IMG/VR virus record: IMGVR_UViG_2563366844_000002 | Coordinates: 1-14,106 of that record | DNA length: 14,106 bases | Source of the DNA: a virus | Lineage: Duplodnaviria; Heunggongvirae; Uroviricota; Caudoviricetes | Direction: 5' to 3' (one strand) | In this document: positions 1-14,106 of the stretch, piece after piece | Numbering within the stretch: position 1 is the first letter of the stretch | Layout: every line of letters starts with the position of its first letter | Made by a program: the position numbers and the translations under genes | The notes under the pieces: generated by a model | What the model was told of the DNA's origin: nothing | Databases searched by the model: none | Seen by the model: only the letters and a program-made list of their open reading frames with translations

Positions 1-28
1 ATGACACGTTCAAATGTTAGCCAAATCG

Positions 29-80
29 TAACCCGCAAGCCATTCAAAATAACCCGCAACCACCCCCAAATAACCCGCAA
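29..80. repeat. Iteron-like direct repeat cluster, 3 copies of TAACCCGCAA at 21-bp phasing (candidate distal replication or regulatory site)
   Basis: TAACCCGCAA occurs at 29-38, 50-59 and 71-80, each start exactly 21 bp apart. The same 10-mer is the repeat unit of the iteron cluster at 7903-8029. The plus-strand ORF 1..441 translating this region looks like a repeat artefact. Confidence 0.7.
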
Positions 81-530
81 ACACATCAGGAAAATGGGGC
101 CAGTGATGCCACCGATACCCTATATTTGGGTATCGCGAGTAAGCCCCAAAATCTGGGTGTTACTCTTACTACCCAAACTACGGGTAGTTTCCGTATTTTC
201 ATGGTCGAGTTGCAAATCTGCAACTCACCCACCCGCCAACCCATTTTTGGGCCGTCGGGAATATCAACAAATTAGCACAGAAATAACTCAGGCAGATACA
301 AAACTCAACTTTGAGCTTTGCTTATTATTCAGTTGGTTAACATCCCTCAAAACTGAGGACTGTACCCAAAGCTATTTTTATAGCTCCGGCCTCAGCAGTT
401 GGCTGTTCCCGAAAATATCAGTCAGTTACGTTAACCGCTAATTTCTGCCTTTGGTGTGAATACTGTCGCTTTAACCTACGGTAATTGTTCTGCCTCGGTG
501 CGTGTCACCGCCGTAACCGCGCCAGTAAAC

Positions 531-564
531 ACCACAGATTCGTGGTTTTCCTGAATATCAGGAA
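531..564 (-). other. Two adjacent short hairpins just 3' of the last gene of the packaging operon (weak terminator candidates)
   Basis: ACCAC-N6-GTGGT at 531-546 and TTCCTGA-ATA-TCAGGAA at 548-564, directly after the stop at 566-568. No strong U-run on the minus strand, so termination function is uncertain. Confidence 0.25.
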
Positions 565-565
565 T

Positions 566-856
566 CTACCGCCGCAACCGTTCCGGCTTCTTCCACTGGT
601 AAGTATTTTTCGCGCTCTCCCTCCGTTGTTGAGAACGGCGACGGTATGCCAGCAACTCAAGAACTCTGGTTCGTATGTTGCGCATATCCACGCCGTTAAG
701 CTCAATACCGTCACGGCGCATTACCTCAGCCACCACACGCGTGTAATTTTCGGCTATCACGCTGTCCGGCTGTGTAGCCTGTTCGTCAGGCTGCTGACTG
801 ATTCCGGTAATGCGGCGAATTATTTTTAGTAGATCAGTTTCAGTCATTCTCGTCAT
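566..856 (-). CDS. Hypothetical 96-aa protein, last gene of the packaging operon
   Basis: Start ATG at 856-854 overlaps the TerL stop at 855-853 (ATGA overlap, translational coupling). No family recognised from the sequence. Confidence 0.5.
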   Translation of the reverse strand: MTRMTETDLLKIIRRITGISQQPDEQATQPDSVIAENYTRVVAEVMRRDGIELNGVDMRNIRTRVLELLAYRRRSQQRRESAKNTYQWKKPERLRR

Positions 857-2514
857 ACCCCATCAAACGCCGCAAGTCGCTCTTTGTGGCTGTCGCTCAT
901 ATCAAATGCAAATTCCTCATGCTCTGCCTGGAATGTGCCAAACGCCATCAGCGCCGCAACGCTCGGGTCTATCTTGTTGGATGATTTTTTCTTGTTCGGC
1001 TTGATATTGGCGTTCGCGTCACTCTGCATCACAACATTACTCATTGACCAGGCCAGCACCGGATCACCACGATGCACAATCACCTTCCGGTTAACAAAAA
1101 CTTCGAACGATTTCGCCGCCGGACTGAAACGAAGGTATGTTTGCGGGAACGGCTCCACCTCTAATCCTGCCCCCTGTAGCTGCGTCCTCAGGTGCGTGGC
1201 GTTCCATGTATCGAAGCCCACCAGCCTGATATTGAAATTCTCTGCATCCGCCATGATGTCATCACGGATACGGTCATAATCAATGCAGTCACCCGGTGTT
1301 GTGCGTATCCAGCCCGCCTTTACCCACTGGCGATAGATGGCGCGGTTTTTATTGGCGGGGTTCTGTAGCTGAAATTCCGGCAGATAGTGACGGGAAACCA
1401 GCATAATCTTTTTACCGACCGGAAAGGCATAGCACACGCTGGAAATATCGCTGGTTGATGATAAGTCCAGCCCCGCGTAGCACTCCTGCCCGTATAAATC
1501 CGCCTCCGCGAACGTTCCGGCGCACTCCGCCCATGCACCGTTACCCATCCACGGCGTAGCCCCCTGACACCAGATATTGAATCGCTTGGTGAGCATTTCC
1601 ACCCACTGCGACGGAATACCCCGCGCTTTCTGGATGGTTGAGGCCAGTTTTTCACGATCGACGGAAACATCGATATTTGGATTCGCCTTTATCCACATCG
1701 CCGGATCGTCAACCTCGCTTTCATCATCCAGCTCGTAAATCAGAACGAACATGGATTCGTTCATCTCTTCACCATCCAGTATCTGACAGCAATAGTCATA
1801 GTGTTGTTTACAGGCTGAAACAACGTTGCTCCCCGATGTGGTGATGGCAAATAACAGCCCCTCCGGACGCGCCCCCATCCCCAGCTCAAGTGCGGAATAA
1901 ACCCCGTTGTCTGGGTGCAGGTGATATTCATCCACAATGGCAAGACTCGGGTTTGTCCCCTCAATGGTTGCCGCTTTTGCTGCCAGTGGCTTTAACAGGC
2001 TGTTGGTTTTCGGGTGTATCACCTTGTGCGCCTGAATATTTACCCGCTTTCGTAACGGTCGGGATAAAAGGCACATCTGACGCGCATCATCAAACACGAT
2101 CCGCGCCTGATCACGACTCACGGCGGCGGTGTAAATATCCTGCTGCCCGTTTTCCATAACCAGAAACCAGTTAGCCAGGATAGCGGCGACCGTGGATTTG
2201 GCATTTTTTCGCGGTACTTCAATGAATGCGCTGGTGTATTTGCGCCGTCCGGTGGCCTTAACCTTAAAGCCCAGGATGCAGGCAAAGGCGAACTGCTGCC
2301 ACGGCTCCAGTTCAATGGGGCTACCGCGCATTGCGCCTTTTACGTGCGGGCACACCCGGGAAAAGGCAATAAACCGCTCCACGACCTCCGGATCGAACGT
2401 GTAAAGGGAGTTTTCAAGGTCAGAAAAATACCGTTTAACGGCCTGTTTCAGTCGTTTACAGGCCGTAATTTTGCCGTTTTTTACGCCTTCTGCGTACTCA
2501 TGCCAGGCGGTCAA
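853..2514 (-). CDS. terL: Phage terminase large subunit
   Basis: 553-aa ORF with the N-terminal ATPase pattern and overall layout typical of phage large terminases. The annotated start is a TTG at 2514-2512, preceded by GAGGAAGAGGA at SD distance and overlapping the TerS 3' end by 17 nt. Confidence 0.85.
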   Translation of the reverse strand: MTAWHEYAEGVKNGKITACKRLKQAVKRYFSDLENSLYTFDPEVVERFIAFSRVCPHVKGAMRGSPIELEPWQQFAFACILGFKVKATGRRKYTSAFIEVPRKNAKSTVAAILANWFLVMENGQQDIYTAAVSRDQARIVFDDARQMCLLSRPLRKRVNIQAHKVIHPKTNSLLKPLAAKAATIEGTNPSLAIVDEYHLHPDNGVYSALELGMGARPEGLLFAITTSGSNVVSACKQHYDYCCQILDGEEMNESMFVLIYELDDESEVDDPAMWIKANPNIDVSVDREKLASTIQKARGIPSQWVEMLTKRFNIWCQGATPWMGNGAWAECAGTFAEADLYGQECYAGLDLSSTSDISSVCYAFPVGKKIMLVSRHYLPEFQLQNPANKNRAIYRQWVKAGWIRTTPGDCIDYDRIRDDIMADAENFNIRLVGFDTWNATHLRTQLQGAGLEVEPFPQTYLRFSPAAKSFEVFVNRKVIVHRGDPVLAWSMSNVVMQSDANANIKPNKKKSSNKIDPSVAALMAFGTFQAEHEEFAFDMSDSHKERLAAFDGV

Positions 2515-2854
2515 GTTCGTCCTCTTCCTCTGTTTCCGGTGGATTTCTGCGACGGCTTACCGGGTCAAAACCCAGCAAAGAAGCCATTTTGATCATTATT
2601 CTTTCTGCGTCAGCCTTTGCGCTCAGTGCGGGGTTTCTGCTCTCGCTGCCCTGACTGTTAACAATGCTGAACCCGCGCGTCGCAAGGTCTTCGACGGCTT
2701 TGCGGTATATGGAGTAGTTAACACAATACAGTTCCAGATTGCTCCAGTCGGCGGGGGTAAGGTCTTCCCGCCCGGAAAGCTGGCGCGATTTTTCCTTCCA
2801 CTGCCTGACCGCGATTTCATCCAGGTAAGCGGGGGTTTTTGGTGGTCTTGCCAT
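2498..2854 (-). CDS. terS: Terminase small subunit (P27-family-like)
   Basis: From the internal ATG at 2854-2852 the product starts MARPPKTPAYLDE and carries the P27-type TerS pattern (LTPADW...LELYC..YS.YRKA...NPA...SLLGFDPVSRRR). The ORF-track extension up to 2995 looks non-coding. Confidence 0.75.
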   Translation of the reverse strand: MARPPKTPAYLDEIAVRQWKEKSRQLSGREDLTPADWSNLELYCVNYSIYRKAVEDLATRGFSIVNSQGSESRNPALSAKADAERIMIKMASLLGFDPVSRRRNPPETEEEDELDRLA

Positions 2855-2905
2855 GTTCTTTTTTCGCCCAATTATTTTCAAAAAAATTACCGTGCACAAA
2901 AATTT

Positions 2906-2965
2906 GAGGGGGCGGTCGGTGTCCGGCAGGGACGGTTTCGTCCTGAAAACCGCCCCCACCCCCTC
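2906..2965. other. GC-rich nested inverted repeat between HNH and terS; candidate cos/packaging site or structured element
   Basis: GGGGGCGGT at 2908-2916 pairs with ACCGCCCCC at 2949-2957. An inner hairpin GGACG-GTTT-CGTCC lies at 2930-2943, and extra GAGGGGG (2906-2912) / CCCCCTC (2959-2965) arms flank it. Sits in the 120-bp gap upstream of terS. Confidence 0.35.
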
Positions 2966-2973
2966 TGACGGCC

Positions 2974-3159
2974 TCACCAGCGATTGCGAAAACATTCCAT
3001 GACCTCGCGGTCACGGTCGGTTAATCGCTTCGCTGTGGTGCGTTTTGTGCGCCCTGTCCTGTTGGCTTTGTGCTCTGTCTCCTGTGTCTTCCATGTGTCA
3101 CGCTGCCTTATCAGTCCACGTATCAGCCTGGTTTGCTCCTGTTCAGTCATCATCGCCAT
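2974..3159 (-). CDS. Possible small basic ORF (about 61 aa) between HNH and terS
   Basis: Internal ATG codons at 3159, 3153 and 3150 lie just upstream of the HNH stop at 3145-3143. Product MAMMTEQEQTRLIRGLIRQRDTW... is highly basic. The upstream part of ORF 2974..3354 overlaps HNH in another frame and is not considered coding. Confidence 0.3.
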   Translation of the reverse strand: MAMMTEQEQTRLIRGLIRQRDTWKTQETEHKANRTGRTKRTTAKRLTDRDREVMECFRNRW

Positions 3160-3583
3160 ACATCCAGTCGTTACGGTGTGCCGCCCGTTCTTCCTGCTCG
3201 CGATACATGCCCGCTTTACGGTTTGCTTTCGTGGCTGGATCTTCTCGTGTCGTCTTACGGTTGTGGCACGTCTGGCACAATGCCTGGTGATTCCACTCAG
3301 GCCAGAAGAGAACATCACCGCCGCCATTGATGGGAATGATGTGATCCACCACAAGAGCTGGCGTATAAATCCCCTTAGCCAGACAACGCACGCATAACGG
3401 GTTTTTGCTCAGGTACAGGGCGCGGTATTTGTCCCACTGTCGGGAATACCCGCGCGCGCGGCGGTGTCCCCGTCTGGCATCCTCTGCACGCCATGCAGCC
3501 CGCCTGTGCTCTTCACACTTGCCGGACTTCACGCGCTTATTACAGCCAGGCTCAGTGCATCGCCTTAATGGTTGCCACGGCAT
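3143..3583 (-). CDS. HNH endonuclease (phage packaging-associated)
   Basis: Cys pairs near the N-terminus (CTEPGCN, CEEH) and an HNH core VVDHIIPINGGGDVLFWPEWNHQALCQTCHNRKT. Located just upstream of terS/terL, as in HK97-like packaging modules. Start overlaps the connector stop by 1 nt. Confidence 0.85.
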   Translation of the reverse strand: MPWQPLRRCTEPGCNKRVKSGKCEEHRRAAWRAEDARRGHRRARGYSRQWDKYRALYLSKNPLCVRCLAKGIYTPALVVDHIIPINGGGDVLFWPEWNHQALCQTCHNRKTTREDPATKANRKAGMYREQEERAAHRNDWMYGDDD

Positions 3584-3885
3584 CAGTACACCCCTACGTC
3601 ACGATAAACTGACCAGAGCGCAGAAATAGCCATAGGCAGTTCCGAGTGCTCCACTGGTGAAACCGCTTCCCGGTTCTCGTACAGGAAAGCGATGTACATC
3701 AGGCAACCAACACGCATTGCCGGGGTAAATTCCAGCCCGTCTTCAAAACGTTTCCCGATATGCTTCTGGCAGGCTTCCAGCGCCGCATCGGTATACATTT
3801 TCAGAAGTTCGCCTTCACCGGATAAATCATCATCAAGTCGAAGATGTGCCCTGACTTCATCAGGTGTAATTCTGGCTTCACTCAT
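3583..3885 (-). CDS. gp6-like head-tail connector protein
   Basis: From the internal ATG at 3885-3883 (preceded by AGGGAGAAAAG) the product starts MSEARITPDEVRAHLRLDDDLSGEGELLKMYTDAALEACQKHIG, which fits the gp6-like connector pattern. The portal stop at 3880-3878 is 2 nt upstream. Confidence 0.7.
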   Translation of the reverse strand: MSEARITPDEVRAHLRLDDDLSGEGELLKMYTDAALEACQKHIGKRFEDGLEFTPAMRVGCLMYIAFLYENREAVSPVEHSELPMAISALWSVYRDVGVY

Positions 3886-5092
3886 CTTTTCTCCCTTTAA
3901 TTTCCACAGTCTGTTTCCATGCCTGGCTGAACTCATCACCACCTTCACGCGGCGGCATACCCTCACGCTCACGGGCTTCGTTCGGATTCATGATCCCGTT
4001 CTTAATCCCTTTCTCATACGTGGCATAACGTTCGGTGGGTGTGGCGCGTAATAAATCGGCTGAATCAAACTCAACCAGATAACGGGTACCAGGTACGGGA
4101 GAAGCCACCAGCAAAGCGGCCTTGATTTGCTGTTCGAAGTTCGCTAGCCACGGGCGCATTGTCATGGTCAGAAACGCGCGGCTTGCCTCGCTGAAATTGC
4201 TGTAGGTGCTGTTGCTGTATTCCTGCAGAAAAATAGGCGATACGTTGAACATGCGGGCGATGTCTTCAATGGAGAAGCGACGGGAGGCCAGCCATTCCGC
4301 ATCCTGGTTACTCATTCCCAGTTGCCTGTAATCCATGCCCCCTTCAAGGATTGGCGTTTTTCCGGCATTTTTCGCCCCCTTGTAGCGTTCCAGAGCATCC
4401 AATGCCTGTTTACCTTTCACGCCGTCCAGCCATTCGCCTGACGTGATAATCCCTGCCGCCATCATGCCATCTTTCATAATGCTGGCTCCGTGACGCTGTT
4501 GAGCAAGGCCAAGCCCCAGCGCCTCACGGCAAATCGTGACGGGGGAACGCCCCAGAAAGCCATCATCCGAGGCATAGCGGAGATGCAAAACTTCTTCCTG
4601 TAAATACGTGCGCACCGTTCCTGTACAGGGTTCGGTGATGGTATAGCGGTATTTGTGTGCGCCTGTGCATTCCGGTACAACACACCCCGGCGCATAAGGA
4701 TGAAGTGATTTTGGCTGCCCGTCCTGCCCCCACTCAATAACCGCATAGGCGTTACCGTTCAGCAGGCAGTGACGCATCATTGTGCGTTTAAACTGGTAAG
4801 GTGTCTGGCACGAATTAGGCTGCTCATTCAGCAGAATATCTACCGGGTGACTGTCCAGCCATTCCCGCGCCTCCCTGCCCTTGTCATTACGTACCAGATA
4901 CAGATAACACGGCATCGTGGCCACCGCCTCAGCGATGACAGAAACCGCATTCATCACTGCAGGCAATGATTCAGCCGTCCCGGCAGAAACATATTCTCCG
5001 GATCCGGTATTCGGTACGCCGGACAGCGCCAGAAAATCATCAATGGACAGGTTACGCTGCTCGCTTTTTTTACGACTAAAAGGCCACCACAT
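3878..5092 (-). CDS. Phage portal protein (HK97-family-like)
   Basis: About 404 aa from the internal ATG at 5092-5090 (MWWPFSRKK...). Size and sequence are portal-like. The ORF-track start at 5182 would overlap the protease gene, so the internal start is preferred; the protease stop at 5096-5094 leaves a 1-nt gap. Confidence 0.85.
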   Translation of the reverse strand: MWWPFSRKKSEQRNLSIDDFLALSGVPNTGSGEYVSAGTAESLPAVMNAVSVIAEAVATMPCYLYLVRNDKGREAREWLDSHPVDILLNEQPNSCQTPYQFKRTMMRHCLLNGNAYAVIEWGQDGQPKSLHPYAPGCVVPECTGAHKYRYTITEPCTGTVRTYLQEEVLHLRYASDDGFLGRSPVTICREALGLGLAQQRHGASIMKDGMMAAGIITSGEWLDGVKGKQALDALERYKGAKNAGKTPILEGGMDYRQLGMSNQDAEWLASRRFSIEDIARMFNVSPIFLQEYSNSTYSNFSEASRAFLTMTMRPWLANFEQQIKAALLVASPVPGTRYLVEFDSADLLRATPTERYATYEKGIKNGIMNPNEAREREGMPPREGGDEFSQAWKQTVEIKGRKDE

Positions 5093-5093: not shown

Positions 5094-5654
5094 TCACAAC
5101 CCCGCCAGCTCAGACCAGCGATGACGATTATTTCCTGTCGGACGTAATTCAGGGTGCTGTGCAAACAACGAACGGTGGGCAATCTCCACGCCAGATTCTG
5201 GATAAGCAGGCATCGACGTTATTGTGATTTCACGGAGTTCAGCGGCGGTTACGGTACGCAGATACGGTTTTTGCGCGATACTCCACTCCTCGCATAATGC
5301 GCGAAAACCAAAGCTCATTCCTGTAATGTCGCCACGCTCCACCAGCGTAAGCACATCTTTTCCAAGCTGGGTATCCGGCGGTGTCAGTTCAAAACGTAAC
5401 CCGGTGTTATCCTCAGTCAGTACCAGAGTGCCGGATTTGGTGCGCCCCAGCAGTTGGGTATAGTCATGCTCATACAGGCAGCGCACATCATTACCCGTCG
5501 CCAGATAGTCAGCAAAAGCCCCCGGCGTGAACTGTTCGCGGAATTCGTCCCAGATAATTTCTGAAAGGCTGTTCCAGCGAACGGCATACCCCACCAGCTT
5601 TTTATTGCTGGCGGTCAGTTCAGATGTGCGGATTTCAAAATCGGTGTTTTTCAT
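5094..5654 (-). CDS. Prohead maturation protease (HK97-family, S78-like)
   Basis: 186 aa with a GMSFGF-containing core typical of HK97 prohead proteases. Lies between the major capsid and portal genes. Confidence 0.85.
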   Translation of the reverse strand: MKNTDFEIRTSELTASNKKLVGYAVRWNSLSEIIWDEFREQFTPGAFADYLATGNDVRCLYEHDYTQLLGRTKSGTLVLTEDNTGLRFELTPPDTQLGKDVLTLVERGDITGMSFGFRALCEEWSIAQKPYLRTVTAAELREITITSMPAYPESGVEIAHRSLFAQHPELRPTGNNRHRWSELAGL

Positions 5655-5695: not shown

Positions 5696-5708
5696 TCCTT
5701 ACTCATGA

Positions 5709-6878
5709 CTAGCCAGCTTTCATTTCCAGAATTTTGATGGCGTTTGAATCCACCACACCACCGCCCAGATATTTATCCGTGTGGACCTTGTAGAATCCGG
5801 GTTCAGTAATGTTGTCCGGTCGGGTGCGAATCCCTGTTACATGATCAACGATGAAATAACCACGACTGAAATCTCCAACCGCTAGCGGTGCTTTTCCTGT
5901 GCCGATGTCCGGCATGGACTCCAGGCAGTAAACAGGACGACCAAGCAACATATCCGGCGCACCTTCTTTAAGGCTGTCGCGCCAGATATAATCGCCGTTC
6001 TCATTTTTCAGCTTCTGTAGTGCCCCTGCCGTGCCCGAGTTCATCACCCAGACGGCATTTTTGCGGTATTTCGCTTTCAGCTTGTAGAGAATGTCGATCA
6101 GTTCGTCCGCTGTAATGGCGGTTCCACTTGCCGCTACCATTTTTTCAATGGTGCCAAAAGCGCGGGTTTTGTCACTGGTCGCCGCACGGGTGTAAGCCAT
6201 GAAGCCTTTCGGCTTGCCGTTACCGTCGCCATTAACAAAATCATCCTCTTCGGTGCTGGCGAACGTGTCGGCAATTTCGGAGGATAACCAGCCCAGAATA
6301 TCCACCTCTGAAAAATCCAGGATTTCCTGCGTGGTTTTCGGGTAGGCGTAGATCGGATTCAGCTTGATGGTTACGCGTTCAATTTTCGGGGTGTTGGTTT
6401 CACTGCGTGCGCTGCCTTCTGTGCCTCGTCCTACAGTTGCGCCGCCAGTGGAAACCAGTTTCTGAAACTCATTTGATTTTGCGGTCTTCACGGTCGCGAT
6501 CACGCGCATAACACTGTCATCCTGTAGCTGGCGCATGACTTCGCGATCGAGCTCAGGAATTACGGTATATCCACCATCCCTGCCGCTGTCAGTGCTGGTG
6601 GACAGTGATCGCACATCTCCGGTTACGATGTAGTTACGCAATTCATCAGATGATAATTTCTGGATGCCCGTTCCTGGCTTGCTGCGTTCTTCATCAGCCA
6701 CAGACTCGAGGCGGGAAATTTCTGTGTCGAGGGAATCGGCTTTTGCACGCAGTTCATCAAACTGTTTGCCCTCGTCATCGTTCAGGCTGCGGTTTTCACT
6801 GTCGGCTTTTTCCAGCAGGGATCGCATCTGGTTTTTCAGGGCGTTTTTTTGCTGGCGGAGTTCGATTAATTTCTTCAT
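5709..6878 (-). CDS. Major capsid protein (HK97 fold family)
   Basis: 389 aa with an N-terminal coiled-coil/delta-like region (MKKLIELRQQKNALKNQMRSLLEKADSE...) followed by an HK97-type capsid body. It is the first gene of the packaging operon. Confidence 0.9.
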   Translation of the reverse strand: MKKLIELRQQKNALKNQMRSLLEKADSENRSLNDDEGKQFDELRAKADSLDTEISRLESVADEERSKPGTGIQKLSSDELRNYIVTGDVRSLSTSTDSGRDGGYTVIPELDREVMRQLQDDSVMRVIATVKTAKSNEFQKLVSTGGATVGRGTEGSARSETNTPKIERVTIKLNPIYAYPKTTQEILDFSEVDILGWLSSEIADTFASTEEDDFVNGDGNGKPKGFMAYTRAATSDKTRAFGTIEKMVAASGTAITADELIDILYKLKAKYRKNAVWVMNSGTAGALQKLKNENGDYIWRDSLKEGAPDMLLGRPVYCLESMPDIGTGKAPLAVGDFSRGYFIVDHVTGIRTRPDNITEPGFYKVHTDKYLGGGVVDSNAIKILEMKAG

Positions 6879-7902: not shown

Positions 7903-8029
7903 CTGCGGGTTATAATCGCACTTTTGCGGGTTATAACTGCCGTTTTGCGGGTTACGTGCGGGTTATTGATTTCCTTTTTATTCATACAGTTAATTCACTT
8001 ACACACAGGATAACCCGCATAACCCGCAA
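7903..8029. repeat. Origin-like iteron cluster: 4 direct repeats, AT-rich spacer, 2 inverted repeats of TTGCGGGTTA
   Basis: Copies at 7903-7912, 7924-7933 and 7945-7954 (21-bp spacing) and 7956-7965, then a 44-bp AT-rich stretch (7966-8009), then inverted copies TAACCCGCA(T) at 8011-8020 and TAACCCGCAA at 8020-8029. Lies immediately 3' of the primase gene. Confidence 0.75.
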
Positions 8030-8051: not shown

Positions 8052-10175
8052 TTAATCTTCTGCCTCAGGCTGGAACATCATCACGTAAAAAACATGCTGC
8101 TTACCCCCAATTTTGCCGAGCGCCTTTTTCTTGTAACGGCGATCGTTACCCGCTTCCAGCATTCCGGCAGCACTCAACGCGCGGGCAAAGTGGGACGGGT
8201 TAAATCCCTGTGCGATCTCCCCCTCAAACACATGAGGAAACGTGTAAAAACGGAACTCATCATCTTCATTTCTGATACTCCCCTTTCTGTATCCGGCAAG
8301 GTCTTTAATCGGTAAATCACGTTCATCACTGTTTGGGTAAGGAAGGTATCGACTGAACCCGAACGACGACAAAAACGCCTCAGCCTGTTCAACCATCTGT
8401 TTAAATTCCCTGTTACCCGTGCCGAACTCCTTCACCCAGGCATTAAAGTTATGCTGTATTGCGTCCCGGCATTCCTGCGCGGCCCAGCCAGTTACATGAC
8501 CGGAAAGCACAAGCGCAGCCTCCAGTATCGCGAAACGTTCCCCCACGCGGTGGACCTGCTCGCCGTAGCTCTCCGGTATCAGGTTGCGCCACCGTTCGCG
8601 GCATTCCCTTACCGTATCCTTTGCCTCCTGCTGGTGGTCTGCCAGCCATTTAACCCATTCACGACCCGCCGCCCCGTGATTTTCTGTCCAGGCATCTTTT
8701 AACGCGTCTGCGTGCGCCTTTCCGGTGCTGTATTCGTGAAATTGCGTGGCTTTTTCCATCGGAACGTTAAGCAGGCGGACAAGCTGCCCCGCTTTGACTT
8801 TTATCCCCTCCGTTTTGAGGAATGTCTCAACGTCCATTTCTCCGGTGCTGATTGCCACCGTGCGCCAGTGTTTTATCTCCCGGTTGCCGCCGTCCTTCGC
8901 CCCCTGTAATTTCCCGGAGCCGTTAAACAACGTATAGGCTGACGTGGACACCTCCCGCGCGTTTCCGGCCTGACCTATTTCATCCAGGGGTAACAGCCCG
9001 TCGTTGTGTGCCTCTGCCTCGTTGGCGATACCTAACGCCGTTCCGTACCAGGTAAGCCGTTGTGCGTCCGGCTCTCCCCATAAACTTGATGCGATGTTCT
9101 GCGTGGTGGTTTTCCCTGCCGATGACTGTTCGAAAAGATGTACCCCGAAGCCGTCAGCACCAACAAGGCCAATCAAAGGTGCTGACAGTGACGTGGCAAC
9201 ACCCAGCATCATGGACGGATTGCCACCAGCCAGCCGCGCCACGCTGTCACGCCAGCCCTCCGCCGTACCCGCAACCGAATAGCCATTAACAGCGGCACTT
9301 TTTCCGGTAAACAGGATCGGTTTTTCAGAATCACCAATGATTGAACCGTCCGGCATGATGTACGCGCCAAAATGCCAGCCTGTTGTTGTGCTTAGCTGCC
9401 ATTCCTCATGGCTTCCGCTTAACTGCATCCAGTCAGCCAGGATAGCCCTGTATTTGCCATTTGTTGTCACGTTCAGCCCGTGATCTTTAAGCAACCGCCA
9501 GCCGTCACGGTCGCCAATGCCACCACACGGGATCGCCATTGTGATGACTTCATGGTTTGCTAATTTTTTCCAGCGCATCACGCGGTAATGTTCTTTACCG
9601 ATCGTCCCCGTTCCCAGTAGTTCAAGCGGAGAACATAACCACGTCTCAGGCCGGATAATTTCGCCTGACTGCTTATCCACTTTGGGCGTTACCCAGAAAA
9701 CACCATCGACGCGACTTTCAACGCGGGGCTTTAATTCATCATCCTGATAGCATGGCTCTTTTTTCTTTACAGGCAGTTCAACTACCTTTTTCTTTTCCGC
9801 CAGCTCTGCCCGTTCACGTTCCAGATATTCACGCCAGTTCTCCCGTTTCTGGCTGTGCATTCCTTCAGGGTAATAATCAGCATCCCTGACACCTGCCGCT
9901 GCCAGTTTCTGCCCGATGGTATTAACAACCCCCGGACGCAATAACCCCGCCTGATAGAGACGCACGCGATAGCGCCCGTCCGGTACGATTTGCAGCTTAT
10001 CCAGTTCGGATAACTGCTGCTCACCAAGCCACACAGGAGGCACGTTATCGCCAGCCAGTCGCCCGTCCTGTTCCTGCCACTGCTTCGCATGTGCCCACGC
10101 ATCACTACCCGCAAAAATGATGACTTCCGTCATTTTGTCACGCGGCTGGTGTTTTAAATTTGGCGCTTTTTTCAT
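8052..10175 (-). CDS. Replication protein, primase/helicase-like with P-loop NTPase (Pri-Rep-like)
   Basis: About 707 aa from the ATG at 10175-10173 (preceded by GGAGAGAG). Walker A-like motif SSAGKTT in the central region and an N-terminal region that looks toprim/primase-like. ATGA overlap with the upstream 99-aa ORF. Confidence 0.75.
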   Translation of the reverse strand: MKKAPNLKHQPRDKMTEVIIFAGSDAWAHAKQWQEQDGRLAGDNVPPVWLGEQQLSELDKLQIVPDGRYRVRLYQAGLLRPGVVNTIGQKLAAAGVRDADYYPEGMHSQKRENWREYLERERAELAEKKKVVELPVKKKEPCYQDDELKPRVESRVDGVFWVTPKVDKQSGEIIRPETWLCSPLELLGTGTIGKEHYRVMRWKKLANHEVITMAIPCGGIGDRDGWRLLKDHGLNVTTNGKYRAILADWMQLSGSHEEWQLSTTTGWHFGAYIMPDGSIIGDSEKPILFTGKSAAVNGYSVAGTAEGWRDSVARLAGGNPSMMLGVATSLSAPLIGLVGADGFGVHLFEQSSAGKTTTQNIASSLWGEPDAQRLTWYGTALGIANEAEAHNDGLLPLDEIGQAGNAREVSTSAYTLFNGSGKLQGAKDGGNREIKHWRTVAISTGEMDVETFLKTEGIKVKAGQLVRLLNVPMEKATQFHEYSTGKAHADALKDAWTENHGAAGREWVKWLADHQQEAKDTVRECRERWRNLIPESYGEQVHRVGERFAILEAALVLSGHVTGWAAQECRDAIQHNFNAWVKEFGTGNREFKQMVEQAEAFLSSFGFSRYLPYPNSDERDLPIKDLAGYRKGSIRNEDDEFRFYTFPHVFEGEIAQGFNPSHFARALSAAGMLEAGNDRRYKKKALGKIGGKQHVFYVMMFQPEAED

Positions 10176-10471
10176 TTCTGCTCTCTCCACGCGGCAATCA
10201 TGTTTTTCAGTTCCTGTAGTTTTTTATCAACATCCATACATGACACATGGTTATTTCTGGAAAGCGGGATTTCCCGCCGGAATCTGCAAATAAAGATCTC
10301 CACGTTCAGCGAACTATGAAATGAATAGCCATCACGAATAAAATACACACGGTCAAACATCAGTCCTTTTACCGTTACTCTGTTACCGTTCTTATCCAGA
10401 TAAATAGCGCCGGGGATAATTTTGGGGTGTGCATAACCGCTGGCAGTCAAGCCAGATAAATATGTTCTCAT
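10172..10471 (-). CDS. Hypothetical 99-aa basic protein (AT-rich gene)
   Basis: ATG at 10471-10469 with GGGGA upstream. Stop overlaps the primase start (ATGA). Local GC is visibly lower than flanking genes. No family recognised. Confidence 0.55.
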   Translation of the reverse strand: MRTYLSGLTASGYAHPKIIPGAIYLDKNGNRVTVKGLMFDRVYFIRDGYSFHSSLNVEIFICRFRREIPLSRNNHVSCMDVDKKLQELKNMIAAWREQK

Positions 10472-10477: not shown

Positions 10478-10798
10478 TTATCCCCGATTTGAATCAGTAT
10501 TCGCTTTCTTTATGGCATTTAATGCATCTGCAGCATTTTCAATGGTGCACCGTAACGAAATATCAAACTGCCCAAGCATTGCCAGTAACAAACCGATATT
10601 ACCCATATCAATGCGCATAGCCTTTTCGTCATAGTCCTCATTTTCTGACGCATGCCACATCAGGCTACCAATTGACGCAATACCCATTGATATATTGTCA
10701 GTAGCCCCATACGCAGCGGAATAAACCTTTTTAGCAATATCATGCTCACAGTTAAAATGCGGATTAATCAGGTACTGGTAATTTGACATATCAGGCAT
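10478..10798 (-). CDS. Hypothetical 106-aa acidic protein (AT-rich gene)
   Basis: ATG at 10798-10796 preceded by AGGGGG at SD distance; 8-nt overlap with the upstream small ORF. No family recognised. Confidence 0.55.
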   Translation of the reverse strand: MPDMSNYQYLINPHFNCEHDIAKKVYSAAYGATDNISMGIASIGSLMWHASENEDYDEKAMRIDMGNIGLLLAMLGQFDISLRCTIENAADALNAIKKANTDSNRG

Positions 10799-10994
10799 GG
10801 CACACCCCCTGACGAATACGGGCGGCGAATACCATCACGCAGCCAGCCGGGGATTGCTGGCGTGCTTCCTGTTCGCTGGTGGCCTCAATGGTAATCACGC
10901 GCGGTTGTGCCGTGCTCAGGGCGATAAAACGCCAGATGTATTTATTCAGGTTGTGCGAGTCCCGCCCTTGCGGGTGTGTGGTATGATTTAACAT
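10791..10994 (-). CDS. Possible 67-aa protein (3' portion of the long ORF 10791..11456)
   Basis: Internal ATG at 10994-10992 is preceded by GAGG with a 5-nt spacer. Its stop overlaps the start of the 106-aa ORF. The upstream part of the 221-aa ORF is rejected (see noticed_but_rejected). Confidence 0.35.
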   Translation of the reverse strand: MLNHTTHPQGRDSHNLNKYIWRFIALSTAQPRVITIEATSEQEARQQSPAGCVMVFAARIRQGVCHA

Positions 10995-11094: not shown

Positions 11095-11139
11095 TGGTAC
11101 GTACCATTTGATTTCAGTTTATAACGATGGTACGTACCA
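11095..11139. promoter_or_regulatory. Two identical 12-bp perfect palindromes TGGTACGTACCA (operator candidates)
   Basis: Copies at 11095-11106 and 11128-11139, centres 33 bp apart. The second abuts the ATG of the plus-strand RHH gene at 11140. AT-rich -10-like hexamers on both strands lie between them (around 11118-11125). Confidence 0.6.
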
Positions 11140-11322
11140 ATGCAAGAAGAAAATGTGAAACCAAAATTTGATCGCTCCGGCAGCACAAAGAAAAACATCC
11201 GCTTCGAAGACACATTGTTGCAACAAATTAACGAAGTTGCAGGGCCTGGTAATTTCAGCTCATGGGTAAAAAATGCTTGTCGTGATAAGCTACGCAAAGA
11301 AGGCATAGAACCCAAAGGCTGA
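11140..11322 (+). CDS. Small ribbon-helix-helix-like DNA-binding protein (putative regulator), divergent from the replication operon
   Basis: 60 aa; KKNIRFEDTLLQQINEVAG...NFSSWVKNACRDKLRKEG fits a beta-strand plus two-helix RHH layout. It has its own downstream plus-strand terminator at 11417-11446. No clear SD, so possibly leaderless. Confidence 0.5.
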   Translation: MQEENVKPKFDRSGSTKKNIRFEDTLLQQINEVAGPGNFSSWVKNACRDKLRKEGIEPKG

Positions 11323-11416: not shown

Positions 11417-11446
11417 GGCGACCGCCCCCGGTCGCCTTTGTTTTAT
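11417..11446 (+). terminator. Rho-independent terminator downstream of the RHH gene
   Basis: Stem GGCGACCG (11417-11424) / CGGTCGCC (11429-11436) with a 4-nt loop, followed by TTTGTTTTAT (11437-11446). There is no U-run in the minus orientation. Confidence 0.6.
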
Positions 11447-11461
11447 GTGCCATCACTCCCC

Positions 11462-11665
11462 CTATGCTGCCTTACCTGAATTAACTCGGTCACGGTTTTG
11501 CACCCAGTCCATAACTTCGGAAAGCAACCAACCTACAGAACGCCCACCAAGATTACGGCGAGACGGAAAGCTCCCTTTTTTCTCCAGTTCATAGCGAGTG
11601 GTACGGCTAACCCCGGTTAACTTACTGCATTCAGCCTCACGGATTATGCGGTCAAATTGAGCCAT
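11462..11665 (-). CDS. alpA: AlpA-family transcriptional regulator
   Basis: From the ATG at 11665-11663 the 67-aa product MAQFDRIIREAECSKLTGVSRTTRYELEKKGSFPSRRNLGGRSVGWLLSEVMDWVQNR has the typical AlpA HTH pattern. Start is preceded by GGGGGGAGTG. Confidence 0.8.
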   Translation of the reverse strand: MAQFDRIIREAECSKLTGVSRTTRYELEKKGSFPSRRNLGGRSVGWLLSEVMDWVQNRDRVNSGKAA

Positions 11666-11675
11666 CACTCCCCCC

Positions 11676-11864
11676 TTACACCGTCTGCGTTCTGCGAGTG
11701 GATGCAAGATAAGCATCGAGATCAGTGCGCATATACAGCACTTTGCGCCCCAGCTTATGAAAAGGGATTTTTACCTTGCCAGTACACGCCCAGTTAGCAA
11801 GAGTCTGGACACTTACCCCCAAATGCTCGGCAGCTTCTTTGCGGGTCATCTTTTCTAAATGCAT
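11676..11864 (-). CDS. Excisionase-family (MerR-like HTH) DNA-binding protein
   Basis: KEAAEHLGVSVQTLANWACTGKVKIPFHKLGRKVLYMRTDLDAYLAS fits the excisionase/HTH_17 pattern. ATG at 11864 is preceded by GGTGA; alternative starts are GTG at 11873 or ATG at 11849. Confidence 0.7.
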   Translation of the reverse strand: MHLEKMTRKEAAEHLGVSVQTLANWACTGKVKIPFHKLGRKVLYMRTDLDAYLASTRRTQTV

Positions 11865-11936
11865 GAGTATCACCGTATACTTCTGATTAAGAACAGGTAT
11901 ACGTTATTTAGCGATGGGGAAGTCTTGAAGACAGGA

Positions 11937-11966
11937 AAACCAGATACAAAATCGCATATCTGGTTT
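11937..11966. other. 10-bp-arm inverted repeat AAACCAGATA-N10-TATCTGGTTT (candidate terminator for the int-cargo transcript, or operator)
   Basis: Arms at 11937-11946 and 11957-11966. On the minus strand it is followed by UUUCCUGUCUU. Sits 40 bp downstream of the AT-rich cargo ORF and upstream of the excisionase-family gene. Confidence 0.3.
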
Positions 11967-12005
11967 ACATGGCTGAAATCTGGATTACAGAGGATAAAAC
12001 TGGAT

Positions 12006-12692
12006 TTATTCTTTGTCTCCAATAACTAACTTAAAATCCCTGTTTTTTTGCGGGGATTTTGGATTCATCCCCGACTCCTTAAGCCATCTCTCTATAGTCC
12101 CAACTACAGGGACATCATTCCATTTATTGCGTAAGTGCGCGTATATCTCTGCGGATAGCCCGGGTAAACTGGCATTAGGGTATTTTTTCCAAGTGTTACA
12201 AGCTATAGATAACGCTGTTGATTTATGCCTGTTTGTTTTTCCTTTCTTTGCTTTACTACGGTCTTCACTGATAATTTTCTTTACATTAGCTATATCACGT
12301 ACTGATTTTAATAAATTCTCCGACACTAAAATCGCATATCTTTCACGTAACTGATCTGCAAGTCTGTTGAAACCAAGAACTTCAAATATAATGGCAGCTT
12401 TCAAAATATCATTGAATTCTGAATATGCACTATTAAATTTTTTATCAAAATCATCTCCATATCCGGCACATACAGAAATATTAACCTTTAAATCCTTATT
12501 TTCTATCTCTGACGATAATGATAATCTTTCCTCCAGAGACATTTTAGATGGTGTGATATTTGCCATATCGCATATCGTTTTTTTTACAAAAGAAGACGCC
12601 AGTTCATCTCTAATATAATCTGCAATAGTATTCATATCCTTCGCATCATTATGGTCAAATTCTATTGCAGCAATGATTTTATTTTCTGACAT
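12006..12692 (-). CDS. Hypothetical 228-aa protein, strongly AT-rich (putative accessory/cargo gene)
   Basis: ATG at 12692-12690 preceded by GGTGG; start overlaps the integrase stop by 14 nt. GC is markedly lower than the rest of the element by eye. No family recognised; the C-terminal third may be helix-rich/HTH-like (weak impression). Confidence 0.7.
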   Translation of the reverse strand: MSENKIIAAIEFDHNDAKDMNTIADYIRDELASSFVKKTICDMANITPSKMSLEERLSLSSEIENKDLKVNISVCAGYGDDFDKKFNSAYSEFNDILKAAIIFEVLGFNRLADQLRERYAILVSENLLKSVRDIANVKKIISEDRSKAKKGKTNRHKSTALSIACNTWKKYPNASLPGLSAEIYAHLRNKWNDVPVVGTIERWLKESGMNPKSPQKNRDFKLVIGDKE

Positions 12693-14106
12693 TCAAACCA
12701 CCATTTGAATTAACGATACTAAATAGTAATGCGCGTTTCTCACTGTCACTCATACTCTCCAGTGCGGAAAGCAATTGCGCATCGATAGATTTTTTACTCT
12801 CCACCAGCCCGGCATGTTCCAGAATTGCCCGTTCTATCCGTGACGCTGGCTCCAGCAGTTCATCAGCACCAAAATGTAAATACCCCTGCGTTACGTCAGC
12901 ACTTCGCATAGTACGGTGATTCATCAGGCGCTTGAGGATGTAATTGCCCACGCCCACCAGTTCGGCAACCGTTCCGAACGTCCGGCGTGCATCGTGCCAT
13001 TTGAATGGTACAGGGGAGAGCATTTCATCGTTCGACTCTGGAACAGTAGCCGCGCTTATCCGGTCTATGATGTGCCGTGTTTCCTGAATCACTCCCTTCA
13101 CACCAGGAAACACCAGAACATCATCAGCGTTTTTTATTTTCAGTCGGCGGTGGAACATTTCCCGCAACGTATCAGTAATCGGTAATTCGAGCGGATCCCC
13201 GTTTTTCGTGGTGTCTATCCAGAAAAAACGACCGCCCATATTCACGCGATCCCACGTAAGGCCAAAAATTTCTGATTTCCTCAGTCCGGTAAAAAGCGCC
13301 ATTTCCACGGCATCGCATACCGTCACCGCTATATCATCCCTTTCCTGTTCGCCCTGGTCGCGCACAGCAGCTACAGCAGCAAACCAGCGGGGAAAATCAT
13401 GCAGGCGGATACGTTCCGTTTTTCTTACCGTTCCGTGCCACTGGCGCTTGGTGCTCAGTACCAGAGTCGGCGGATCCGGTAAAAGAGTATTACCCGCATC
13501 ATCACGGTAATGATCATGCGCAAACCGACACACAGCACGTAGCGCACGCGCCCATAAATCGGCCTGTGCCTTGCTTCCTGTACCAACCCCAGCCCGTAAC
13601 GTGGTTTTATCAGCACCGAACCATACAGCCCCATCAGTGATGGCCTTATGCCGTTGTTCCACCCGTTCGCGGGAAATACTGGCGAGGGTATGGGCCATCC
13701 AGTCACCGGAATAATTCTGTAATATGCTGCGGTACTGTTTTTCTGTGGCGGGTTTCAGGCGGTGGCCACGATTTTTTACGTAGGCGTCAATCGCCTCACT
13801 CAGCGTTATCATGGCCTTGTTGTTAGTGCGCTTTGCTATGTTCGGATTTATCCCCGTTGTGGCGACTTCGCCAAGGAGTTCCATAGCTTTAGCCCTGGCA
13901 TTATCCACGCTCAGATCAGGAAAACGCCCCAGCGTTGCACGAATAAATTTTCCGTTACGCTTACGGGAAATGCAGAAACTTTTCACACCAGACGAACCTA
14001 CACGGACACGCAGCCCGTTAACCTCCGTATCACCATATTCGACCTGTCCATGTTCCGGCGTTGGCAGTTCTGCAATTTTTACTTTAGAGAATCTGAATAA
14101 TTTCAC
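12679..14106 (-). CDS. int: Tyrosine integrase (phage integrase family); 5' end at or beyond the window edge
   Basis: N-terminal arm-type pattern (KIAELPTPEHGQVEYGDTEVNGLRVRV...KSFCISRKRNGKFIRATLGRFPDLSVDNARAKA) and C-terminal catalytic residues (R in TGLRKSE, H-x-x-R in HDARRTF, Tyr in GYLHF). The ORF is open to position 14106, where the first codon is GTG, so the true start may lie outside the window. Confidence 0.9.
   Translation of the reverse strand: MKLFRFSKVKIAELPTPEHGQVEYGDTEVNGLRVRVGSSGVKSFCISRKRNGKFIRATLGRFPDLSVDNARAKAMELLGEVATTGINPNIAKRTNNKAMITLSEAIDAYVKNRGHRLKPATEKQYRSILQNYSGDWMAHTLASISRERVEQRHKAITDGAVWFGADKTTLRAGVGTGSKAQADLWARALRAVCRFAHDHYRDDAGNTLLPDPPTLVLSTKRQWHGTVRKTERIRLHDFPRWFAAVAAVRDQGEQERDDIAVTVCDAVEMALFTGLRKSEIFGLTWDRVNMGGRFFWIDTTKNGDPLELPITDTLREMFHRRLKIKNADDVLVFPGVKGVIQETRHIIDRISAATVPESNDEMLSPVPFKWHDARRTFGTVAELVGVGNYILKRLMNHRTMRSADVTQGYLHFGADELLEPASRIERAILEHAGLVESKKSIDAQLLSALESMSDSEKRALLFSIVNSNGGLNVRK

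What the first reader, a model, noticed from the sequence alone, without database searches (positions are those of the whole stretch)
1..14106. Window is a tail-less, lysis-less satellite with its own capsid and terminase module (cfPICI-like)
One strand carries, in order, int, xis-like, alpA, a primase/replication gene with an adjacent iteron origin, ssb, and then a complete head-building and packaging set (HK97-type capsid, protease, portal, gp6-like connector, HNH, TerS, TerL). There are no tail, tail-fibre, holin or endolysin genes. That combination matches what is known of capsid-forming PICIs, which make their own small capsids and use helper-phage tails. The iteron copies at 29-80 suggest the left boundary lies outside the window.
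Basis: partly seen in the sequence, partly recalled or inferred. Interest (0 to 1): 0.6.

Follow-up and report, generated by a model that had tools for sequence, protein, structure and literature searches.

The report
Capsid-forming phage satellite (cf-PICI) of E. coli
The window is most of a ~15-kb capsid-forming phage satellite (cf-PICI) of E. coli, a known and common kind of element that builds its own small heads and borrows a helper phage's tails; its one unusual trait is that it lacks one of the two head-to-tail joining genes of the studied examples.

Summary
Profile searches confirm, on the minus strand: int, HTH_17 (xis-like), AlpA, DUF927 primase-like replication gene, iterons, SSB, then HK97-type capsid, S78 protease, portal, gp6-like connector, HNH, P27-type TerS and TerL. 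No ORF hits a tail, holin, lysin or defence family.

A 99.94%-identical twin contig (L017) shows the whole element. It is about 15.0 kb, inserted in tRNA ileX between yqjH and mug-rpoD, with core genes on both flanks. The window stops about 750 bp short of the tRNA end and about 200-225 bp short of the int end.

Every packaging gene is 56-93% identical to the experimentally characterised prototype EcCIEDL933. The capsid is 64% identical to its T=4 cryo-EM structure (9GYI). This is a member of a known family, and the head module occurs in 534 of 5,426 complete E. coli genomes.

Two differences from the prototype:
- The "head closure/adaptor" gene between portal and connector is absent. This is a stable sub-lineage of about 143 genomes.
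- The second iteron block lies at the far end of the element and is cut by the window edge.

Interest is low to moderate.

The parts
12679..14106 (-). Tyrosine integrase (475 aa). In the twin contig it sits next to the displaced 3' fragment of tRNA ileX.
   Evidence: Pfam Phage_integrase and Arm-DNA-bind_3. The identical protein is found at the ileX site in many genomes. att mapping.
12006..12692 (-). orf228, an accessory gene of unknown function in the variable slot after int. GC is about 35%.
   Evidence: No hit in Pfam, PHROGs, NCBIfam or PADLOC. Low GC. Relatives L001 and L018 carry a 266-aa protein in this slot; L001's is 52% identical.
11676..11873 (-). HTH_17 small DNA-binding protein (excisionase-like).
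   Evidence: PF12728, 1.3e-12.
11462..11716 (-). AlpA-family regulator, the activator whose helper-induced expression starts the PICI cycle in the prototype.
   Evidence: PF05930, 5.8e-17. 69% identical to the EcCIEDL933 AlpA. Its role in the prototype is described.
11140..11322 (+). YlcI/YnfO (DUF3950) small protein, the only credible plus-strand gene. It diverges from the icd-primase operon.
   Evidence: PF13132, 5.6e-8. NF041551.
11095..11139 (.). Two copies of the 12-bp palindrome TGGTACGTACCA (11095-11106 and 11128-11139) in the divergent intergenic region. Operator-like; this is an inference.
   Evidence: Read directly from the sequence.
10791..10994 (-). Icd-like (host cell-division inhibitor-like) small protein.
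   Evidence: NF033153, 1.5e-19. phrog_6196, 1.2e-47.
10478..10798 (-). orf106, unknown function, conserved in PICIs.
   Evidence: phrog_15327, 8e-70.
10172..10471 (-). DUF4222 protein.
   Evidence: PF13973, 2.6e-17.
8052..10190 (-). DUF927 primase/helicase-like replication initiator (pri-rep).
   Evidence: PF06048, 8e-47. phrog_1139 'DNA primase', 7e-180. 89% identical to the EcCIEDL933 protein.
7905..8027 (.). Origin-like block 1: four GCGGGTTAY iterons, an AT-rich spacer, then two inverted iterons.
   Evidence: The motif is present only in elements with the DUF927 primase.
7418..7840 (-). Single-stranded DNA-binding protein.
   Evidence: PF00436, 1.2e-16.
7152..7400 (-). orf82, unknown function, upstream of the head operon.
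   Evidence: phrog_1957, 8e-37. 43% identical to a counterpart in EcCIEDL933.
5709..6878 (-). HK97-fold major capsid protein with an N-terminal delta/scaffold region.
   Evidence: PF05065, 1.4e-71. PDB 9GYI (EcCIEDL933 T=4 capsid) at E=7.7e-155, 64% identity.
5094..5654 (-). Prohead serine protease.
   Evidence: PF04586, 6e-46.
3878..5092 (-). Portal protein.
   Evidence: PF04860, 2.8e-92. 81% identical to the prototype.
3583..3885 (-). gp6-like head-tail connector (Ad1). It overlaps the portal stop by 8 nt, and no head-closure/adaptor gene lies between them.
   Evidence: PF05135, TIGR01560 and phrog_40. Junction sequence. Population survey.
3143..3583 (-). HNH endonuclease, a packaging cofactor of HK97/P27-type terminases.
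   Evidence: PF01844, 8.8e-10. 84% identical to the prototype.
2974..3159 (-). orf61, homolog of the small EcCIEDL933 gene between hnh and terS. By gene numbering this is 'gene 1792', whose mutation severely reduced transfer.
   Evidence: phrog_3173, 6e-27. 77% identity. Paper text; the assignment by numbering is my inference.
2855..2973 (-). Candidate cos region, with the conserved motif GGGGTGGGGGnGGTTTTCAGGAC at about 2940-2963.
   Evidence: The motif is conserved in the window, EcCIEDL933 and vB_KppS-Ant, and coincides with the right physical end of the linear record LR881103.1. This is an inference and has not been shown.
2498..2854 (-). Small terminase, P27 family.
   Evidence: PF05119, 4.2e-23. 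87% identical to the prototype.
853..2514 (-). Large terminase (ATPase and nuclease domains).
   Evidence: PF03354 and PF20441. 93% identical to the prototype.
566..856 (-). orf96, unknown function. Conserved downstream of the terminase genes in both cfPICIs and classical PICIs.
   Evidence: phrog_1561, 2e-53. 72% identical to the prototype. Present in classical PICIs L005 and L008-L010.
111..232 (.). Four-hairpin (multi-palindrome) noncoding element. A second direct copy lies outside the window, on the other side of iteron block 2.
   Evidence: Fold z-scores of -7.6 and -6.7. Second copy at L017 17087-17200 and in L001. No Rfam match.
28..78 (.). Half of origin-like block 2, with three iterons. 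The AT-rich spacer and three inverted iterons lie just outside the window.
   Evidence: The continuation is at L017 16928-16953.

Best explanation
The window is about 94% of an integrated capsid-forming phage-inducible chromosomal island (cf-PICI) of Escherichia coli. The whole element is about 15.0 kb and sits in the tRNA-Ile(CAU) gene ileX. The mechanism below is inferred by homology to EcCIEDL933, and none of it was shown for this element. (1) A helper prophage, once induced, triggers expression of AlpA. (2) Int, probably with the HTH_17 excisionase-like protein, excises the element at a 19-nt core inside the tRNA. (3) The DUF927 primase-like protein fires the GCGGGTTAY iteron origin, with the element's own SSB. 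(4) The head operon makes portal, S78 protease and an HK97-fold capsid protein, which assemble small (probably T=4) procapsids sized for a 15-kb genome. (5) P27-type TerS, TerL and HNH, with the small orf61 protein, cut at a cos site that probably lies in the orf61-terS gap and package only the island. (6) The gp6-like connector caps the portal. (7) Tails come from a helper phage, as does lysis. Unlike the three studied cf-PICIs, this sub-lineage encodes no head-closure/adaptor protein. Either the helper also supplies that layer of the neck, or it is dispensable.
For: Gene content and order are confirmed by profile searches. Every packaging gene has a homolog in EcCIEDL933 at 56-93% identity and in the same order. 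L004 is identified as EcCIEDL933 by its 100% capsid identity to PDB 9GYI. The window capsid matches 9GYI over its full length at E=7.7e-155, and the 'connector loop' region aligns without a large gap. The twin contig L017 (99.94% identical, 8 mismatches, no gaps) shows att repeats in tRNA(CAU), 21-nt arm-type repeats inside both ends, an element of about 15.03 kb and core-gene flanks. No tail, lysis or defence hit was found for any ORF. The same body, at 98-99% identity, is joined to three other integration modules at other chromosomal sites (L001 at ileY, L011-L014 and L016 next to cspD-clpS, L015 next to a PQQ-dehydrogenase gene). The identical Int also heads classical PICIs. This is the modular pattern described for PICIs and cf-PICIs. 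The functions of the homologous genes in EcCIEDL933 were shown by mutation, electron microscopy and cryo-EM. Iterons co-occur strictly with the DUF927 primase.
Against: Nothing functional was tested for this element: no helper is known, and excision, replication, capsid size and cos are all inferred. The head-closure/adaptor gene is absent, although it is present in all three experimentally studied cf-PICIs and is shown there, together with the connector, to set tail specificity. The phrase 'only steals tails' may therefore not apply literally.
Confidence: 0.9

Rival explanations
1. It is a transfer-defective cf-PICI derivative. Loss of the head-closure/adaptor gene left an element that can still make and fill heads but cannot join tails. 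It would persist only vertically or by recombination with other PICIs.
For: In the studied cf-PICIs the adaptor and connector were handled as a functional pair that determines which tails can be joined. In EcCIEDL933, mutating each packaging-module gene abolished transfer, apart from gene 1792, whose mutation only reduced it severely. No homolog of the head-closure protein exists anywhere in the window.
Against: The single-connector architecture is found in about 143 complete E. coli genomes at 90-100% identity, with all ORFs intact and a clean 8-nt portal/connector overlap. The same body at 98-99% identity sits at four or more different chromosomal sites behind different integrases, which argues for recent mobility. 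SatelliteFinder's census found that 10-of-11-component elements are the most common class.
Confidence: 0.1
2. It is a decayed remnant of an HK97/P27-like temperate prophage that lost its tail and lysis modules by deletion.
For: The head and terminase genes are of phage type. Weak homologs of the connector occur in phages SfI, SfII and phiP27 at 34-40% identity.
Against: The left half is a PICI-type int-alpA-primase module, identical at the protein level to that of classical PICIs. The att sites immediately bracket a 15-kb unit with core genes outside. The same compact architecture recurs in 534 genomes. No complete phage in the phage collection carries this head module. The prototype with the same layout is experimentally a satellite.
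Confidence: 0.03
3. It is a P4-like satellite or a classical (capsid-remodelling) PICI.
For: It shares int, AlpA, an Icd-like gene and a primase-type replication gene with P4-like elements and classical PICIs. The identical integrase heads classical PICIs.
Against: No ORF hits Psu, Sid, Delta or Epsilon families. The element encodes its own capsid, portal, connector and TerL, and the portal and head-tail joining components are 'forbidden' in the SatelliteFinder PICI model.
Confidence: 0.01

Closest known systems
EcCIEDL933, the prototype cf-PICI of E. coli O157:H7 (Alqurainy et al. 2022/2023; capsid structure PDB 9GYI, He et al. 2025)
   Same: Same gene order: int, alpA, DUF4222, DUF927 primase, iterons, ssb, capsid, protease, portal, connector, hnh, small ORF, terS, terL, small ORF. 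All shared proteins are 43-93% identical except the Icd-like (50%) and DUF4222 (32%) proteins. Same size class (about 15.0 against 15.4-15.5 kb). Same iteron motif. Same G-rich motif upstream of terS. No tail or lysis genes.
   Different: Different integrase and attachment site (ileX tRNA against the phoQ-roxA intergenic region). No head-closure/adaptor gene. Capsid and protease are only 62-64% identical. The second iteron block is at the distal end and not adjacent to pri. There is an extra HTH_17 gene and a different accessory gene after int.
EcCIGN02175 and KpCIDSM30104, cf-PICIs that release tail-less capsids and join tails from other species (He et al. 2025)
   Same: Same family and the same packaging-module layout, by the paper's description.
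   Different: Both are reported to carry both adaptor and connector genes, which were swapped experimentally to change tail specificity. The window has only the connector.
Classical E. coli PICIs of the EcCICFT073 type, represented here by L005-L010
   Same: Identical Int (475 aa). Near-identical orf228 and HTH_17 region, DUF4222 gene and (in some) the DUF927 primase. The same ileX site and the same orf96/four-hairpin end region.
   Different: They carry lambda gpE/gpD/Nu1-like or ClpP-capsid-fusion/DUF1441 modules and have no portal, connector or TerL, so they depend on helper capsid proteins.
Satellite phage P4 (ori/crr replication architecture)
   Same: Iterons recognised by the element's own primase-type initiator appear to lie at two separated loci. 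This is an analogy drawn from established knowledge of P4 ori and crr and was not tested here. AlpA-family and Icd-like genes are also shared.
   Different: P4 encodes no capsid, portal or terminase. It remodels P2 capsids with Sid and uses P2 cos. Its alpha protein belongs to a different (D5_N) family.

Membership tests
cf-PICI (criteria of He et al. 2025, and SatelliteFinder) | Size of about 10-18 kb | tested here: met
   About 15.03 kb between att cores in the 99.94%-identical twin L017. The window itself holds 14.1 kb of it.
cf-PICI | Integrase at one end, followed by a regulation module (AlpA) and a replication module (primase-rep with ori) | tested here: met
   Pfam and PHROG hits. Iterons at 9 observed against 0.28 expected.
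cf-PICI | Own morphogenetic genes: major capsid, prohead protease and portal | tested here: met
   PF05065, PF04586 and PF04860. Capsid against 9GYI at E=7.7e-155.
cf-PICI | Own packaging genes: HNH, TerS and TerL | tested here: met
   PF01844, PF05119, PF03354 and PF20441. 84-93% identical to EcCIEDL933.
cf-PICI | Head-tail connector (gp6-like) | tested here: met
   PF05135, TIGR01560 and phrog_40. 56% identical to the prototype.
cf-PICI | Second head-tail joining gene (the 'adaptor', named phage head closure protein by PGAP) | tested here: not met
   The best six-frame hit of the EcCIEDL933 protein in the window is E=1.4. Portal and connector overlap by 8 nt. The gene is also absent from all relatives at 98% identity or more. 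It is not individually obligatory. [quoted passage not shown]
cf-PICI | Quorum of core components (at least 9 of 11) with no forbidden tail or holin component | tested here: met
   10 of 11 components by Pfam, PHROG and NCBIfam proxies. SatelliteFinder's own HMMs were not run. No tail or holin hits in the window or in the twin's flanks.
cf-PICI | Packaging-module proteins 50-90% similar to EcCIEDL933 | tested here: met
   56-93% identity across nine packaging-module proteins.
cf-PICI | Helper-phage induction through AlpA, island-made small capsids, exclusive self-packaging and dependence on helper tails | not testable with these tools
   These are experimental properties, shown only for the prototype.
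Classical PICI (SatelliteFinder model) | No portal, head-tail connector or adaptor genes, which are forbidden components in that model | tested here: not met
   Portal and connector are present. Model definition.
P4-like satellite | Psu, Delta and Sid capsid-size/decoration genes and Epsilon, with a P4 alpha-type primase | tested here: not met
   No such Pfam or PHROG hits on any ORF. The primase is of DUF927 type.
Complete HK97/P27-like temperate phage | Tail module and lysis cassette within the same att-bounded unit | tested here: not met
   None in the window or between the att sites of twin L017.

The most novel reading that the evidence does not exclude
This sub-lineage (about 143 of the 534 complete E. 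coli genomes carrying this head module) may have given up its own head-closure/adaptor protein, the more variable of the two proteins shown together to set tail specificity in studied cf-PICIs. It would then recruit the helper's head-closure protein along with the tail. That would make it steal 'neck plus tail' and not only tails. Tail compatibility would be set by whichever helper is present, and release of stable DNA-filled tail-less capsids would depend on a helper-encoded plug.
Probability: 0.3. Interest if true: 0.5.

Novelty: new member of a known kind. Interest (0 to 1): 0.27.

Why it matters
cf-PICIs move genes between strains and even genera by joining their own DNA-filled heads to foreign phage tails. 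Cataloguing their variants helps predict which helpers can mobilise which islands. This element adds no new principle. It is a clean example of a common E. coli lineage whose neck carries one protein fewer than the three studied islands. If that layer is borrowed from the helper, the rule for tail compatibility established in 2025 would need a second mode. The strict co-inheritance of the iterons with the DUF927 primase also gives a ready-made origin assignment for this PICI replication type.

Tried and rejected
- My first two guesses at the EcCIEDL933 coordinates in the EDL933 chromosome landed on a lambdoid prophage and on core genes. I found the prototype through a distant DNA search instead and verified it with 9GYI.
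- I tested whether window 110-850, which is shared with lambda-hijacking classical PICIs, holds a lambda-type cosN. It has only a 2-mismatch hit, inside the capsid gene, at chance level (1 observed against 1.2 expected). Rejected.
- I asked whether one of the small unknown ORFs (orf61, orf82, orf96) replaces the missing head-closure protein. All three have homologs in EcCIEDL933, which has its own head-closure gene, so none is lineage-specific. Rejected as unlikely.
- I asked whether the connector was recently captured from a known phage. True phages are 40% identical or less. Rejected.
- The Rfam scan of the window gave only one sub-threshold hit (SymR, 34.9 bits against a gathering score of 61).
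- PADLOC and NCBIfam searches on orf228 and the other unknown ORFs gave nothing.
- The IMG/VR scan for the single-connector junction gave 22 contigs. Judging from their identifiers, most look like predictions from isolate genomes, and judging from the match positions, the two metagenome contigs appear to run through the predicted cos; I did not read any of these contigs. They give no evidence on packaging.
- Folding of the four-hairpin element cannot separate RNA structure from palindromic protein-binding DNA, because both strands fold equally well.

Full report
**Observation**

The window's credible genes lie almost entirely on the minus strand.

| Gene | Window coordinates | Evidence |
|---|---|---|
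| Tyrosine integrase | 12679-14106 | Integrase fold plus arm-binding domain |
| HTH_17 excisionase-like protein | 11676-11873 | PF12728 |
| AlpA | 11462-11716 | PF05930 |
| DUF927 primase-like protein | 8052-10190 | PHROG 'DNA primase', 7e-180 |
| SSB | 7418-7840 | PF00436 |
| HK97-type capsid | 5709-6878 | PF05065 |
| S78 prohead protease | 5094-5654 | PF04586 |
| Portal | 3878-5092 | PF04860 |
| gp6-like connector | 3583-3885 | PF05135, TIGR01560, phrog_40 |
| HNH | 3143-3583 | PF01844 |
| P27-family TerS | 2498-2854 | PF05119 |
| TerL | 853-2514 | PF03354, PF20441 |

The remaining ORFs are an Icd-like protein, a plus-strand YlcI/YnfO protein, a DUF4222 protein and five small proteins of unknown function. 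None hits a tail, holin, endolysin or defence family in Pfam, PHROGs, NCBIfam or PADLOC.

The iterons are real. GCGGGTTAY occurs nine times against 0.28 expected, and no shuffle out of 200 reached nine. Six copies lie between pri and ssb (7905-8027) and three at 28-78.

**True extent and context**

An exact-protein look-up with the capsid found contig L017 (E. coli draft GCA_017754705.1). It is 99.94% identical to the whole window, with 8 mismatches and no gaps.

- The gene order there is aer, yqjI, yqjH, then the element, then tRNA(CAU) (ARAGORN reports a cat anticodon and calls it tRNA-Met; I take it to be ileX from its position beside mug), mug, rpoD, dnaG. There are no tail or lysis genes on either side.
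- A displaced copy of the tRNA's 3' part lies next to int (L017 2548-2592), and the intact tRNA lies at 17580-17655.
- The two share an identical 19-nt core, which gives an element of about 15.03 kb.
- A 21-nt repeat (ACGGTATCCTATAGGTATCCT), presumably an arm-type Int site, lies just inside each end.

The window therefore lacks about 200-225 bp at the int end and about 750 bp at the other end.

A second close relative, L001 (97.9% identical over 95% of the window), sits in the paralogous tRNA ileY next to the gab operon, with a perfect tRNA-derived att repeat of about 45 nt.

**Identity**

The prototype cf-PICI is EcCIEDL933. It is 15.4-15.5 kb and was shown experimentally to make its own T=4 capsids, to package itself exclusively and to need only helper tails.

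I located it in an O157:H7 genome as L004, between phoQ and roxA. Its capsid is 100% identical to PDB 9GYI, the deposited EcCIEDL933 capsid.

Window proteins against L004:

| Protein | Identity (%) |
|---|---|
| TerL | 93 |
| DUF927 primase | 89 |
| TerS | 87 |
| HNH | 84 |
| Portal | 81 |
| orf61 | 77 |
| orf96 | 72 |
| SSB | 70 |
| AlpA | 69 |
| Capsid | 63-64 |
| Protease | 62 |
| Connector | 56 |

The gene order is the same. The window capsid matches 9GYI over its full length (E=7.7e-155), and the 'connector loop' region aligns without a large gap.

No complete phage in the phage collection carries the module. The best hits cover 22% or less of the window at about 75% identity, and the best of them is itself a 16.5-kb cfPICI-like record.

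The published family criteria are met, with one exception described in the next section. Those criteria are size, an int-regulation-replication module, capsid, protease, portal, connector, HNH, TerS and TerL, and the absence of tail and lysis genes.

The element is common. The head module is found in 534 of 5,426 complete E. coli genomes.

The same body, at 98-99% identity, is joined to different integrases at other chromosomal sites. The identical Int also heads classical PICIs with lambda-type or ClpP-fusion modules at the same site. This matches the modular picture already published.

**What differs from the studied cf-PICIs**

*1. The head-closure/adaptor gene is absent.*

- EcCIEDL933 has a 112-aa 'phage head closure protein' gene between portal and connector. 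He et al. call this protein the adaptor.
- He et al. report an adaptor and a connector in all three islands they studied. They show that swapping the pair changes which tails can be joined.
- In the window, the portal stop and connector start overlap by 8 nt. The EcCIEDL933 head-closure protein finds nothing in six-frame translation (best E=1.4).
- A junction-spanning query splits E. coli cleanly. About 143 genomes at 90% identity or more match in one piece, annotated portal | connector | HNH. All 11 sampled rows of that group showed this.
- The remaining genomes match in two pieces with an extra ~340 nt annotated as head closure protein. That held for 28 of the 29 sampled rows.
- This is therefore a stable, intact and evidently mobile sub-lineage, not a one-off deletion.
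- It still satisfies the family's quorum rule with 10 of 11 components. [quoted passage not shown]
- The small unknown ORFs all have counterparts in the prototype, so none is a replacement.
- The connector is not a recent capture from a known phage, since true phages are 40% identical or less.
- How the neck is completed is open. My preferred inference is that the helper supplies its head-closure protein.

*2. The second iteron block is displaced.*

- The iteron motif occurs only in elements with the DUF927 primase.
- It is absent from elements with a D5_N-type primase. One of these, L012, has a head module 99% identical to the window's.
- The motif is therefore the cognate origin of the DUF927 initiator.
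- In EcCIEDL933 and in a classical PICI, two iteron/AT-rich blocks sit in tandem next to pri.
- In this lineage the second block lies at the far end of the element. It is flanked by two direct copies of a 115-nt four-hairpin element and is cut by the window edge.

**Mechanism**

The mechanism is inferred by homology, and none of it was shown for this element.

1. A helper phage induces AlpA.
2. Int, probably with the HTH_17 protein, excises the element at the tRNA core.
3. The DUF927 protein and SSB replicate it from the iteron origin.
4. The head operon builds small HK97-fold procapsids.
5. TerS, TerL, HNH and orf61 cut at cos and package the island. orf61 appears, by gene numbering, to be the homolog of EcCIEDL933 gene 1792, whose loss severely reduces transfer.
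6. The gp6-like ring caps the portal.
7. Helper tails, and probably a helper head-closure protein, complete the particle. The helper also provides lysis.

The likely cos lies in the 119-nt orf61-terS gap. A G-rich motif there is conserved in three elements and coincides with the physical end of the linear vB_KppS-Ant record.

**Verdict**

The element is a new, uncharacterised member of a family that has been well described since 2022-2023, and it is very common in E. coli. Interest is low to moderate. The single-connector neck is the only feature that could teach something new.

Noticed in passing
window 28-78; L017 16801-16953; compare L004 15590-15896 and L005 15867-16174: There is a second origin-like block (three iterons, an AT-rich spacer, three inverted iterons) at the far end of the element, about 7.9 kb from the block next to pri. 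In EcCIEDL933 and in a classical DUF927-type PICI the two blocks are in tandem. The split layout recalls P4 ori/crr. Iterons are absent from D5_N-primase elements even where the head module is 99% identical.
   Followed up: partly
window 111-232; second copy at L017 17087-17200 (L001 7675-7790 and 8112-8230): A noncoding element of about 115 nt made of four consecutive hairpins or palindromes (fold z of -7.6 and -6.7). It is present as two direct copies flanking the distal iteron block. One copy is also conserved at 94-95% in classical PICIs with unrelated packaging modules. There is no Rfam match and the function is unknown.
   Followed up: partly
window 10995-11067 (+): A sub-threshold Rfam match to the SymR antitoxin RNA (34.9 bits against a gathering score of 61, E=0.0017) lies immediately upstream of, and antisense to, the 5' side of the icd-like gene. 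It folds strongly (z=-6.3). It could be an antisense regulator of a toxic cell-division inhibitor, or a chance match.
   Followed up: partly
window 11095-11106 and 11128-11139: Two copies of the 12-bp perfect palindrome TGGTACGTACCA, 33 bp apart start to start, lie in the divergent region between the icd-primase operon and the plus-strand YlcI/YnfO gene. They look like operators of the island's regulatory switch.
   Followed up: no
L005-L010: The identical 475-aa integrase, with orf228 and HTH_17 and at the same ileX site, heads classical PICIs carrying lambda gpE/gpD/Nu1-like or ClpP-capsid-fusion/DUF1441 modules. One of them, L007 at 18527-19198, also carries a Lambda_tail_I homolog, which is unexpected in a satellite.
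   Followed up: no
window 12006-12692 (-): orf228 has 35% GC against about 52% for the rest of the window and no hit in any of the four profile libraries. It occupies the variable slot after int, where the relatives L001 and L018 carry a 266-aa protein; L001's is 52% identical. It is a candidate accessory or defence gene.
   Followed up: partly
L017 2548-2592 and 17580-17625: The displaced native tRNA 3' fragment and the element-supplied 3' part of the restored tRNA differ at about 5 positions, including paired changes in the T-stem (CTGG/CCAG against TTGG/CCAA). Lysogens therefore carry a hybrid ileX tRNA. At ileY (L001) the two copies are identical.
   Followed up: no
LR881103.1 (L019); OR544139.1 and OR544138.1: Records deposited as phages appear to be cfPICI-like satellites: 'Escherichia phage vB_KppS-Ant' (16.5 kb) by its annotated gene content, and 'Pasteurella phage Pmp8' and 'Pmp7' (15.3 and 10.7 kb) only by their small size and a connector hit. 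vB_KppS-Ant also has a 765-aa gene after TerL annotated 'tail length tape measure protein', which may be a mis-annotated accessory gene.
   Followed up: partly
window 1-441 (+) and 10791-11456 (-): Two long ORFs are probably not genes. The 146-aa ORF runs across the iterons and the hairpin element. The 221-aa ORF is an upstream extension of the 67-aa Icd-like gene and overlaps the opposite-strand YlcI gene. Some gene callers report both.
   Followed up: partly
window 5675-5700 (-): A strong terminator-like hairpin (11 pairs followed by a T-run) lies in the 54-nt gap between the capsid and protease genes. The capsid gene is transcribed first. The hairpin may attenuate read-through so that more capsid than downstream proteins is made.
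   Followed up: no
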